DNA from: an uncultured archaeon
Lineage (GTDB): Archaea > Asgardarchaeota > Thorarchaeia > Thorarchaeales > Thorarchaeaceae
Direction: 5' to 3'
Length of the DNA stretch: 64,000 nucleotides
Assembly (NCBI GenBank): GCA_964610875.1
Contig: CAZSWP010000013.1
Location: 1 to 64,000, forward strand
The translations under genes and the position numbers were made by a program. This document shows, one piece after another, positions 53,116-55,161 of this stretch. The notes below the pieces were generated by a model. The model searched no databases, was not told the origin of the DNA, and saw only the letters and a program-made list of their open reading frames with translations. The first letter of the stretch is position 1, and each line of letters starts with the position of its first letter.

Positions 53116-55161
53116 ATGTTTGAAATCTCCAAGGCTATGAAAATCAAACTACCTAGTGAACTCCCTCCACAACCGAAGTTTGACCCTCAGTATAGGCGTG
53201 CACCTAGTAGAGGGTTCAATCTAAGCAAGGGTGAGACCATAACTGCTCTCAAAAATGCTCTCCGTTATGTTCCTGAGGGACTACATGAAAAGATTGTTCC
53301 TGAGTTTCTGAATGAATTGATGACTCGTGGACGCATCTATGGATACAGGTATAGACCAACTGGTGCAATTCGTGCAAAGCCAGTTGATGAGTACAACGGG
53401 ACTCTTGAAGCAAGAGCAATGCAATTGATGATGGACAACAATGTTAGCTTTGAAATTGCTCTCTATCCGTATGAACTGGTGACTTATGGTGAGTCTGGAC
53501 AGGTCTGCCAGAATTGGATGCAGTTCCAACTGATTAAGAAATACCTCGAGATGATGACAAAGGAACAGACACTCGTTGTCAGTTCAGGACATCCCGTAGG
53601 TCTCTTCCCTTCAAAGAGGAACGCCCCAAGGGTAATATCTACTAACGGTCTCATGGTCGGAATGTTCGATACTCCTGAAGGATTTCATAAAGCATCCGCG
53701 CTAGGTGTCGCTAATTACGGACAGGTATTAGCAGCTCGTTAATACCCCGCAAAGATGACAGCTGGTGGCTGGATGTATATTGGTCCACAAGGGATTGTAC
53801 ATGGAACCTATATTACATTACTAAATGCTGGAAGACTATACCTTGGACTCCCACAGGACAAAGATTTGGCAGGTCATCTGTTTGTCACTTCAGGCCTTGG
53901 AGGGATGAGTGGGGCCCAAGCAAAAGCCATTGAGATAGCCGGCGGTGTTGGAGTCATTGCTGAAGTGGATAAGAGTCGTATCGAAACAAGAAGTCAACAG
54001 GGTTGGTTAGGTAAGAACTCAGATGACTTGGATGAAATATTTGATTGGGTGCAAGAATACAAAGAGAGTAAGACCCCTATTTCAATTGGTTACTATGGGA
54101 ATATTGTTGATTTGTGGGAATATGTTTTGAAGAATAAAGTTGAAGTTGAACTTGCCTCGGATCAGACCTCTTGTCATGATGCGTATGGGGGTGGTTATAC
54201 TCCCCAAGGTTTGTCATTCGAAGAGGGACGAGACCTTCTTTGTGAGGATAGGAATAAATTTACCAGACTCGTTGATGCATCGCTGAAACAGCAATTTGAA
54301 CTCATAAGAAGCATGCATGAACGTGGTACTTTCTTCTGGGATTATGGTAATAGTTTCATGAAAGCAGTATTTGATGCAGGAGTCAAAGAGATAGCAAAGA
54401 ATGGACGTGACACCAGTAATGGGTTCATTTTCCCATCATATGTTGAAGATATCATGGGCCCCATTTGTTTTGATTATGGTTATGGCCCCTTCAGATGGGT
54501 CTGTCTGAGTGGAAAGCATGATGATTTGATAAGTACCGACAAGATTGCTATGTCATGTATCGACCCAAATCGGCGAGGACAAGACCGTGACAATTACATT
54601 TGGATTCGTGATGCTGAAAAGAATGATCTCGTCGTTGGTTCTCAGGCTAGGATTCTTTATGCAGATGCCAGTGGGCGTGTGAAGATTGCTCTCGAGTTCA
54701 ATAAAATGGTTAGAGAAGACAAGATTGGTCCTATTATGTTAGGAAGAGACCATCATGACACCGGTGGTACAGACTCCCCATTCAGAGAAACTGCAAATAT
54801 CTACGATGGAAGCAATGTGATGAGTGATATGGCTCATCAGTGTTGGGCTGGGAACGCAGCTAGAGGAATGTCATTGTGCGTCCTGTCAAATGGTGGCGGT
54901 GTGGGAACTGGTAAAGCTATCAATGGCGGGTTTGGTCTTGTGTTGGATGGGTCTGAACGGGTGGACAACATCATCAAGTCTGCTTTAAACTGGGATGTAA
55001 TGGTTGGAGTATCTCGGAGGGCATGGGCTAGAAACGACCATGCAATAGAAACAGCTATAGAATGGAATAGAGAGATAGGAAACAATGGACAGATTACGGT
55101 TCCTTACCTACCGAAAGAAGGGTTGGTTGAGGACCTTGTAGAAGAAAAGTTCAAGGAGTAG
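53116..55161 (+). CDS. hutU: Urocanate hydratase (long type), two exons 53116-53722 and 53753-55161; 671 aa spliced
   Basis: YPYELVTYG, SGHPVGLF, YGQ|MTAGGWMYIGPQGIVHGT, SDQTSCH, GRDHHD; the two ORFs are in frame and separated by 30 nt. Confidence 0.95.
53723..53752 (+). other. Putative 30-nt BHB intron in hutU mRNA
   Basis: Intron AGGUAUUAGCAGCUCGUUAAUACCCCGCAA; bulges AC|A and AA|A, central helix ACGG/CCGC, inner stem GGUAUUAG/UUAAUACC; removal gives TAC GGA CAG ATG. Confidence 0.85.

What the first reader, a model, noticed from the sequence alone, without database searches (positions are those of the whole stretch)
53723..53752. hutU split inside the conserved YGQMTAG motif by a 30-nt BHB-like intron
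ORFs 53095-53742 and 53755-55161 are in frame and join as GVANYGQ-MTAGGWMYIGPQG once 30 nt are removed. The fold is an exon helix AUU/GAU, a central helix ACGG/CCGC, bulges AC|A and AA|A, and an 8-bp inner stem GGUAUUAG/UUAAUACC. Intact hutH and hutI nearby imply the pathway is functional. Inference: splicing could gate histidine catabolism.
Basis: partly seen in the sequence, partly recalled or inferred. Interest (0 to 1): 0.88.

Follow-up and report, generated by a model that had tools for sequence, protein, structure and literature searches.

The report
tRNA-type mini-intron in Thorarchaeal hutU
The only urocanase gene (histidine breakdown) of this Asgard archaeon is interrupted by a 30-base hairpin shaped like a tRNA intron, which recurs at the same site with compensating base changes in ten other alleles, so it is very probably spliced out of the mRNA, something published for only one archaeal protein-coding gene (cbf5).

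Summary
The hutU gene (window 53095-55161, +) is interrupted between YGQ and MTAG by 30 nt (53723-53752) that carry an in-frame TAA. [quoted passage not shown]

Main evidence:
- The genome is a Thorarchaeota MAG with two EndA paralogues, RtcB, intact hutH and hutI, and no second hutU.
- Ten further alleles carry a 29-30-nt insert at the same site. Across 11 sequences, 94% of cells pair (28-52% when slid) and 7 pairs show compensatory changes. One of these links the exon's Tyr codon to the intron.
- Both exons are under strong purifying selection (dN/dS about 0.04).
- Most relatives, and all bacterial homologues checked, are uninterrupted. Presence is scattered on the gene tree, and one allele has a recombination breakpoint at the intron.

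No RNA data exist, so splicing is inferred, not shown.

The actin gene in this window and a peroxiredoxin gene on another contig carry similar inserts. This scan has also reported such introns before in other Thorarchaeota genomes (tfb, oppB, rpoA2, rpo1N, ahcY). In the literature I could search, only cbf5 is described.

The parts
53095..53722 (+). hutU exon 1 (Urocanase_N domain; ends ...TAC GGA C)
   Evidence: ORF list and translation; Pfam PF17391, E 2.4e-42
53723..53752 (+). 30-nt BHB intron (the boundary is ambiguous by 1 nt because both third bulge bases are A)
   Evidence: Sequence; fold; same site in 10 other alleles; covariation
53753..55161 (+). hutU exon 2 (AG ATG ACA...; Rossmann-like and C-terminal domains, with the stop codon)
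   Evidence: Pfam PF01175 and PF17392; 77-83% identical to uninterrupted Thorarchaeota urocanases
53717..53720 (+). Central helix, 5' strand (exon, ACGG); pairs with 53747-53750
   Evidence: Alignment columns 15-18 with 45-48: 93% of cells paired; pair 16-47 is CG in 6 alleles and UA in 5
53747..53750 (+). Central helix, 3' strand (intron, CCGC); A53717.C53750 is a mismatch in this copy
   Evidence: 8 of 11 alleles have a perfect 4-bp helix
53721..53723 (+). 5' bulge ACA; predicted cut after C53722
   Evidence: 3-nt bulge in all 11 alleles; position follows the canonical BHB rule (established knowledge; Marck & Grosjean 2003, as cited in PMC5829648)
53751..53753 (+). 3' bulge AAA; predicted cut after A53752
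   Evidence: Same as for the 5' bulge
53724..53746 (+). Intron hairpin: 9-bp stem 53724-53732/53738-53746, loop AGCUC 53733-53737; holds the in-frame TAA at 53740-53742
   Evidence: RNAfold; 6 of 9 pairs show compensatory changes
53714..53716 (+). Proximal exon-exon helix AUU, pairs with GAU at 53754-53756
   Evidence: 100% of cells paired in 11 alleles, mostly invariant. All intron-bearing alleles have AAT, while intronless ones often have AAC
53703..53709 (+). Distal exon-exon helix, 5' strand (AGGUGUC), pairs with 53757-53764 (GAC.GCUG)
   Evidence: RNAalifold predicted it independently. 96% of cells paired. 7-8 of 8 pairs in intron-bearing alleles against 3-6 of 8 in intronless ones (which also counts the G-U pair of column 8, 53710, with column 54)
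46716..48245 (-). hutH (histidine ammonia-lyase), intact
   Evidence: PF00221, 682 bits
44912..46186 (+). hutI-like amidohydrolase (imidazolonepropionase-like), intact
   Evidence: PF01979, PF07969 and a HUTI composite-domain hit

Best explanation
The 30 nt at 53723-53752 are an archaeal bulge-helix-bulge (BHB) intron inside the hutU coding sequence.

In the pre-mRNA, the end of exon 1 (ACGG) pairs with the 3' end of the intron (CCGC). The rest of the intron forms a 9-bp hairpin, and exon sequences on both sides pair with each other. This leaves two 3-nt bulges on opposite strands of a 4-position helix.

The heteromeric splicing endonuclease EndA (two paralogues are encoded in the genome) would cut after the second base of each bulge, and RtcB would join the exons. 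The result is GGA-CAG-ATG, a full-length urocanase of about 673 aa with the intact YGQMTAG motif. Unspliced mRNA would stop at the TAA inside the intron.

Shown here: the structure, its conservation and covariation, selection on both exons, and the presence of the enzymes. Inferred: cleavage and ligation in vivo.

The intron is most likely a constitutively removed, tolerated element rather than a regulator.
For: 1. Geometry and frame: cutting at the canonical bulge positions restores the invariant motif in all 11 alleles (GGA CAR ATG), including a 29-nt variant that could not be read through.

2. Structure across 11 alleles: 94.4% of cells are paired, against 28-52% when the partners are slid. 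Seven pairs have changes on both sides, in 23 cells, and 0 of 500 shuffles reach the covariation score (for the first 8 alleles).

3. The central-helix pair links the synonymous third base of the exon's Tyr codon to an intron base (CG in 6 alleles, UA in 5). This is expected only if exon and intron pair in RNA.

4. G-U pairs occur in the sense strand (13 cells in the proximal, central and inner helices). On the other strand they would be A.C mismatches, so the structure belongs to the sense transcript.

5. Intron-bearing alleles share synonymous choices (CTC GGC GTC ... AAT ... GGA) that strengthen exon-exon pairing. They form 7-8 of 8 pairs, against 3-6 of 8 in intronless alleles.

6. The gene is alive. 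It is the only hutU in the genome and has no other defect. For two intron-bearing species, dN/dS is 0.046 for exon 1 and 0.036 for exon 2 at dS about 0.93, yet their introns are identical at 30 of 30 positions.

7. The machinery is present: two PF01974 EndA paralogues and RtcB. Asgard EndA is reported as the (alpha-beta)2 type with the broad-specificity L1 loop (PMC5829648).

8. The insert is real DNA, found in contigs of two runs and in MAGs and metagenomes from several projects.

9. The same architecture occurs in actin (30 nt, also in two other genera with a compensatory change) and in peroxiredoxin (33 nt, perfect BHB). The 20-aa actin tail cannot plausibly work as a separate protein.
Against: - No RNA evidence. 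No RNA run holds the locus, so neither spliced nor unspliced transcripts were seen.
- In this copy the central helix has an A.C mismatch, giving 3 of 4 pairs, and the adjacent exon helix is only 3 bp. The motif is therefore slightly relaxed.
- The single-sequence fold is not better than shuffles (z -0.6 to -1.5).
- ORF2 starts exactly at a native ATG, and the split falls at a Pfam domain boundary, so a two-polypeptide enzyme is not formally excluded.
- The alleles are related, so the covariation counts are not independent events.
Confidence: 0.85

Rival explanations
1. Split gene. The two ORFs are translated separately (ORF2 from its own ATG at 53755), the two polypeptides assemble into an active urocanase, and the conserved hairpin has some other role or none.
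For: ORF2 begins at a native Met in every allele. The break lies between the Pfam Urocanase_N and Rossmann-like domains. Both ORFs are under purifying selection, which this model also predicts.
Against: This model gives no reason for a spacer of fixed 29-30 nt, for BHB geometry kept by compensatory changes, for exon-intron covariation, or for canonical cuts restoring the motif exactly. None of the 7 allele types checked has a Shine-Dalgarno-like motif before ORF2, although such motifs are enriched before gene starts here (27-36% against 9-16%). The break lies inside the most conserved motif. The same kind of insert leaves a 20-aa actin tail that cannot be a subunit.
Confidence: 0.06
2. Regulated splicing. 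The intron is spliced, but splicing efficiency responds to histidine or to growth state and so gates the hut pathway.
For: Unspliced mRNA would give a truncated product, so in principle any change in splicing rate changes urocanase output. The intron is more conserved than synonymous sites between two species (30 of 30 identical at dS about 0.93), and the apical AGC...GCU is invariant in 11 alleles. Both hint at constraint beyond the BHB motif.
Against: 16 of 19 family genomes with a readable junction, and all bacterial and other Asgard homologues checked, lack the intron. Sister alleles differ in having it. Structurally similar inserts sit in actin and peroxiredoxin. No ligand-binding or sensor element fits in 30 nt, and Rfam gives no match. 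Nothing links it to histidine.
Confidence: 0.05
3. Dead gene or a purely DNA-level insertion (a small palindromic element or repair scar) that is never removed, so hutU is a pseudogene here.
For: There is an in-frame stop, and no RNA evidence for removal.
Against: There is no other lesion in about 2 kb of coding sequence in any of 11 alleles. dN/dS is about 0.04 on both sides. This is the single hutU copy, next to intact hutH and hutI. The insert is not a repeated element in the genome. G-U pairs show strand-specific, RNA-level pairing.
Confidence: 0.03

Closest known systems
cbf5 pre-mRNA intron of Crenarchaeota (Aeropyrum, Sulfolobales, Desulfurococcales; Watanabe 2002, Yoshinari 2006, Yokobori 2009 = PMC2738675)
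   Same: A BHB motif inside a protein-coding sequence. It is removed by the heteromeric (alpha-beta)2 splicing endonuclease, the reading frame is restored by splicing, and the intron has been lost in some lineages.
   Different: A different phylum (Asgard/Thorarchaeota) and a metabolic enzyme rather than an RNA-modification enzyme. Presence varies between very close relatives, the intron also occurs in a second hutU clade, and one allele has a recombination breakpoint at the intron. Splicing is proven for cbf5 and only inferred here.
Archaeal tRNA and rRNA BHB introns (hBHBh' motif, EndA plus RtcB)
   Same: The same motif (two 3-nt bulges, a 4-bp helix, flanking helices), the same predicted cut positions and the same enzymes. 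Size and single-hairpin design match first-stage descriptions of this genome's own tRNA introns, which are unchecked notes.
   Different: The host RNA is an mRNA, with no tRNA body to help recognition. Exon pairing has to be built from codons, and this is visible as constrained synonymous sites.
HAC1/XBP1 unconventional mRNA splicing (IRE1 plus RtcB/Trl1) in eukaryotes
   Same: A short intron (26 nt in XBP1) is removed from an mRNA by a protein endonuclease and a tRNA ligase, without a spliceosome, and this changes the protein made.
   Different: The endonuclease is IRE1, which recognises twin stem-loops rather than a BHB motif. The event is a regulated stress switch, and no regulation is evident here.
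Translational bypassing (phage T4 gene 60)
   Same: A short insert with a stop codon and a hairpin inside a coding sequence still yields one protein.
   Different: Bypassing needs matching take-off and landing codons. No such pair restores YGQ-MTAG here, and the inserts vary at the needed positions. Rejected.

Membership tests
Archaeal BHB intron (here in a pre-mRNA) | Two 3-nt bulges on opposite strands | tested here: met
   ACA (53721-53723) and AAA (53751-53753); there are 3 unpaired columns at both positions in all 11 alleles.
Archaeal BHB intron (here in a pre-mRNA) | Central helix of 4 bp between the bulges, formed by exon 1 and the 3' end of the intron | tested here: met
   8 of 11 alleles have 4 of 4 pairs. 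The window copy has 3 of 4 (an A.C mismatch at the outer position), which is a relaxed form. Pair 16-47 covaries, CG in 6 alleles and UA in 5.
Archaeal BHB intron (here in a pre-mRNA) | Flanking helices: an intron-intron helix (h') and an exon-exon helix (h) | tested here: met
   h' is 9 bp with 6 covarying pairs. h is 3 bp next to the motif plus a distal helix of 7 pairs (8 with a G-U at column 8) with a 1-nt bulge. Intron-bearing alleles pair better there than intronless ones.
Archaeal BHB intron (here in a pre-mRNA) | Cuts after the second base of each bulge give a functional joined RNA | tested here: met
   In silico, all 11 alleles give GGA CAR ATG = G-Q-M, identical to uninterrupted homologues.
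Archaeal BHB intron (here in a pre-mRNA) | The host encodes the splicing endonuclease and the RNA ligase | tested here: met
   Two PF01974 genes (G000 C12:30518-30772 and C3:125936-126193); RtcB at C1:101044-102354.
Archaeal BHB intron (here in a pre-mRNA) | The intron is actually excised and the exons ligated in vivo or in vitro | not testable with these tools
   No RNA run is listed for this DNA. No near-identical full-length protein exists in the 5.8-billion-protein collection.
Homing or mobile intron | An encoded homing endonuclease or reverse transcriptase | tested here: not met
   30 nt cannot encode a protein. The sequences upstream of intron-bearing alleles share no cargo.
Homing or mobile intron | Patchy distribution with co-converted exon flanks or recombination at the insertion site | tested here: inconclusive
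   The gene tree needs 6 changes for 7 intron-bearing rows. One allele (L108) has a breakpoint at the intron. The last 45 nt of exon 1 are 77% identical among intron-bearing alleles against 62-63% otherwise. Selection for exon pairing would explain the shared flank equally well.

The most novel reading that the evidence does not exclude
The hutU mini-intron is not just a vertically inherited relic. It moves between alleles and lineages by recombination, possibly by reverse splicing into sites that offer the exon half of the motif (TTACGGA).

What points that way:
- It occurs in two hutU clades that are separated by bacterial sequences on the tree.
- Its presence is scattered among near-identical sister alleles.
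- One allele has a recombination breakpoint exactly at the intron.
- Intron-bearing alleles share a short tract of upstream exon.
- A metagenomic allele has a second 31-nt insert after another TTACGGA in exon 1.

Together with the actin and peroxiredoxin cases, and with earlier scan reports on tfb, oppB, rpoA2, rpo1N and ahcY, this would mean that Thorarchaeota carry a proliferating population of endonuclease-dependent introns in protein-coding genes.
Probability: 0.3. Interest if true: 0.88.

Novelty: new member of a known kind. Interest (0 to 1): 0.76.

Why it matters
In the literature I could search, BHB introns inside archaeal protein-coding sequences are described for one gene only, cbf5 in Crenarchaeota. 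Papers on EndA from 2018, 2019 and 2025 still cite only that case. Here a metabolic gene of an Asgard archaeon, the group closest to eukaryotes, needs tRNA-type splicing to be expressed, and the comparative support is unusually strong.

- **Annotation.** Gene callers report two ORFs or a truncated urocanase. At least nine protein clusters in public data start at MTAGG; contigs fetched for three of them carry the insert.
- **Evolution.** The data show that an mRNA can host such an intron when its codons supply the exon half of the motif, and that this constrains synonymous sites.
- **Intron gain and loss.** The presence or absence of the intron among close relatives gives a tractable system for asking how protein-dependent introns are gained and lost in the lineage nearest to eukaryotes.

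Tried and rejected
- **RNA evidence.** No RNA holder was listed for window 53300-54200. Laying the contigs of three DNA runs showed only the insert-bearing form for this organism, plus uninterrupted relatives.
- **Full-length protein.** No near-identical full-length protein, whether from a spliced or an intronless form of this allele, was found among 5.8 billion proteins. The best match is 83% identical. No ORF2-only cluster has a full-length partner above 94% identity.
- **Genome-wide scan.** My own scan for BHB geometry that merges two open frames gave 5,949 candidates, and 392 after a codon-usage filter. These were dominated by adjacent gene pairs and chance frames, so it cannot count mRNA introns. 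hutU stood out, with a 9-bp stem.
- **Rfam and tRNA.** Rfam and ARAGORN found nothing in the window.
- **Repeated element.** The intron has no other copy in the genome.
- **Translational bypass.** Rejected, because no matching take-off and landing codons exist.
- **Readthrough or recoding.** Translating a 10-aa insertion is rejected, because one allele has 29 nt and the stop is TAA, TGA or TAG in different alleles.
- **Assembly break at the intron.** The G020 and AB_25 contigs that end at the junction looked like intron polymorphism, but the overlapping contig of G020 reads YGQMTAG uninterrupted. That break is ordinary.
- **Mobile element with its own front half.** Sequences upstream of intron-bearing hutU alleles share no cargo; only L108 shows a swapped exon 1 plus 1.3 kb of unique DNA.
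- **Promoter and terminator scan.** The bacterial-type scan is uninformative for an archaeon.

Full report
**What is there.** Window 53095-55161 (+) encodes a long-form urocanase (HutU) in two in-frame pieces.
- ORF1 (53095-53742) carries the Urocanase_N domain.
- ORF2 (53755-55161) carries the Rossmann-like and C-terminal domains.
- The sequence at the break reads ...AAT TAC GGA C|A GGTATTAGC AGCTC GTTAATACC CCGC AA|A G ATG ACA GCT GGT.
- The stop that ends ORF1 (TAA, 53740-53742) lies inside the insert.
- Removing 53723-53752 (30 nt) gives GGA CAG ATG, i.e. ...GVANYGQ-MTAGGWMYIGPQG. This is the sequence of every uninterrupted homologue examined.

**The fold.** RNAfold gives a 9-bp hairpin (53724-53732/53738-53746, loop AGCUC). 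It stacks, across a 3-nt bulge (ACA), on CGG/CCG.

Written in full, the structure on the 5' strand is:
- a proximal exon helix, AUU/GAU;
- a central helix, ACGG/CCGC, where only CGG/CCG pair and A53717.C53750 is a mismatch;
- the bulge ACA;
- the intron hairpin.

On the 3' strand the bulge AAA separates the central helix from the exon helix.

In each strand the bulge lies 3' of the central-helix strand. This is the geometry of the archaeal bulge-helix-bulge motif, and cutting after the second bulge base gives exactly the 30-nt intron.

On its own the fold is no better than shuffled sequence (z -0.6 and -1.5), so a single sequence proves little.

**The organism and its enzymes.** The genome is 3.75 Mb in 124 contigs, about 95% complete.
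- It is archaeal, and its closest hutU and actin relatives are labelled Candidatus Thorarchaeota.
- It has two EndA-family genes and one RtcB.
- Published work assigns Asgard archaea the (alpha-beta)2 endonuclease with the L1 loop that confers broad substrate range (PMC5829648).
- hutU is single-copy in this genome.
- hutH (46716-48245, -) and a hutI-like amidohydrolase (44912-46186, +) are intact.

**Comparative evidence.** Among 19 genomes of the same family with a readable junction, 16 are uninterrupted and 3 carry a 30-nt insert at the same place: this genome and two species of another genus.

A pattern scan of public genomes, and look-ups of ORF2-only proteins, found more carriers. They are Thorarchaeota YT5_051 and SZ_4_bin3.344 (the latter with 29 nt), three 'uncultured archaeon' MAGs, a 'Promethearchaeota' MAG, and JGI and ENA metagenome contigs. 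None of the 80 bacterial and other Asgard homologues inspected has the insert.

In the 11-allele alignment (A2), the full model gives these figures (for the first 8 alleles):
- 94.4% of cells are paired, against 28-52% when the 3' partners are slid.
- Seven pairs changed on both sides, in 23 cells.
- No shuffle out of 500 reaches the covariation score.
- Six of the nine hairpin pairs covary.
- The central-helix pair 16-47 is C-G in six alleles and U-A in five. Column 16 is the synonymous third base of the exon's Tyr codon, so an exon base covaries with an intron base.
- G-U pairs occur on the sense strand, which places the structure in the sense transcript.

RNAalifold independently recovers the hairpin, the central helix and a distal exon-exon helix. 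The alleles are related, so these counts overstate the number of independent events, but the slid controls keep that relatedness.

**Exons adapted to the intron.** Intron-bearing alleles share the synonymous choices CTC GGC GTC ... AAT TAY GGA C. Each of the three C's pairs with an invariant G of exon 2 (ATG ACN GCN GG).
- The distal helix has 7-8 of 8 pairs in intron-bearing alleles and 3-6 of 8 in intronless ones.
- The last 45 nt of exon 1 are 77% identical among intron-bearing alleles, but 62-63% in the other comparisons. All other windows show no such difference.

Two explanations remain open: selection for exon pairing, or co-conversion when the intron spreads.

**The gene is functional.** No allele has any other lesion. 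Between the two intron-bearing species of genus g2, dN/dS is 0.046 for exon 1 and 0.036 for exon 2, with dS about 0.93. Their introns are identical at 30 of 30 positions. The intron is therefore either under constraint or recently exchanged.

**Distribution.** On the exon-2 tree, the seven intron-bearing rows need six changes.
- The YT5_051 allele (L108) is 97-100% identical in exon 2 to an intronless allele (L025).
- Identity falls to about 73% over all of exon 1, and the change happens within about 20 nt of the intron.
- Its exon 1 groups weakly with another intron-bearing allele, and 1.3 kb of unique DNA lies upstream.

This is a recombination breakpoint at the intron, although a chimeric metagenome assembly cannot be excluded.

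One carrier (LW30_13) belongs to a different hutU clade, separated from the Thorarchaeota clade by Bacillota sequences, yet its intron shares the invariant apex AGC-N5-GCU. Repeated precise loss, lateral spread, or both are needed to explain this. I could not separate them.

**Rivals.**
- *Split enzyme made from two polypeptides.* Not excluded by the ORFs alone, because ORF2 starts at the native Met and the break is at a Pfam domain boundary. It does not explain the conserved BHB geometry, the fixed length or the exon-intron covariation. No allele has a Shine-Dalgarno-like motif before ORF2, although such motifs are enriched at gene starts in this genome.
- *Readthrough or recoding.* Excluded by the 29-nt allele and by the variable stop codons.
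- *Translational bypass.* Lacks matching codons.
- *Repeated DNA element.* Excluded.
- *Pseudogene.* Contradicted by the selection on both exons.
- *Regulatory gating of histidine catabolism.* Has no support. Most relatives do without the intron, and unrelated genes carry structurally similar ones.

**Context.**
- In the same window, the actin gene (33785-34894, -) has a 30-nt insert at 33786-33815 between FQK and MWV. Two other genera have it too, with a compensatory change that turns CCAA/GUGG into a perfect CCAG/CUGG.
- A peroxiredoxin gene on contig C10 has a 33-nt insert with a perfect 4-bp central helix between FTPVCT and TEF.
- Earlier notes of this scan report the same kind of intron in other Thorarchaeota genomes (tfb, oppB, rpoA2, rpo1N, ahcY). 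One of them claims metatranscriptome reads with the intron removed. I did not test those claims.

**What is known.** The papers I could search describe BHB introns in archaeal coding sequences only for cbf5 of Crenarchaeota, where lineage-specific loss has also been reported (PMC2738675, cited as the sole case in PMC5829648, PMC6379350 and PMC12397907). A 2026 preprint on Asgard tRNA introns does not mention mRNA. Searches combining Asgard or Thorarchaeota with mRNA and BHB terms found nothing further.

**Verdict.** This is a genuine, structurally canonical (slightly relaxed in this copy) BHB intron in an Asgard metabolic gene. It is a new member of the kind defined by the cbf5 intron. Splicing itself remains to be shown by RNA data or an enzyme assay.

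Noticed in passing
window 33786-33815 (- strand), actin gene 33722-34894: The actin gene is interrupted by a 30-nt BHB-type insert between ...KTFQK and MWVSRKEF..., leaving a 20-aa C-terminal ORF. The same insert occurs in two other genera (G012, G014), where the central helix is a perfect CCAG/CUGG instead of CCAA/GUGG. The other family genomes whose junction was read are uninterrupted.
   Followed up: yes
G000 contig C10, about 8466-8501 (+), outside the window: A peroxiredoxin gene is split by 33 nt between FTPVCT and TEF. The insert has a perfect 4-bp central helix AUGC/GCAU, bulges ACU and AAA, and a 7-bp exon helix. Canonical cuts give FTPVCTTEF.
   Followed up: partly
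L108 (Thorarchaeota YT5_051) against L025; oriented L108 about 2571-4525: Exon 2 is 97-100% identical between the two, but all of exon 1 is only about 73% identical, and the switch occurs at the intron. L108 also has 1.3 kb of unique DNA just upstream of hutU, holding a 300-aa ORF on the opposite strand. This is either allele replacement ending at the intron or an assembly chimera.
   Followed up: partly
L177 about 607-637 and L178 (JGI metagenome contigs Ga0599213_0000184 and Ga0599236_0013363): This hutU allele has a second insert of 31 nt in exon 1, between YPYELVTYG and ESGQVCQNW. It directly follows ACTTACGGAG, the same TTACGGA context as the main intron site. Its fold is a relaxed BHB at best (CGG/CCG plus an apical ACUAG/CUAGU stem).
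   Followed up: partly
window 49462-49648 and 57696-57882: Inverted repeats of about 190 nt, 91-98% complementary, with a third diverged copy at 57417-57485. They bracket an 8-kb segment that holds photolyase, a TPR gene, hutU, a metallophosphoesterase and an M20 peptidase. Their meaning is unknown: possibly an invertible or mobile segment.
   Followed up: partly
window 55162-55467 and 55464-55952 (+): A metallophosphoesterase-like gene appears as two ORFs that overlap by 4 nt (101 aa with Metallophos hits, then 162 aa with no hit). This could be a frameshift, a programmed shift or two separate genes.
   Followed up: no
hutU tree (loci L003-L127): Asgard long-form urocanases are about 70% identical to those of Bacillota and other anaerobic bacteria. 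Bacillota sequences nest between the Thorarchaeota clade and the Loki/Hod/Hermod-type clade, which suggests inter-domain transfer of hutU.
   Followed up: no
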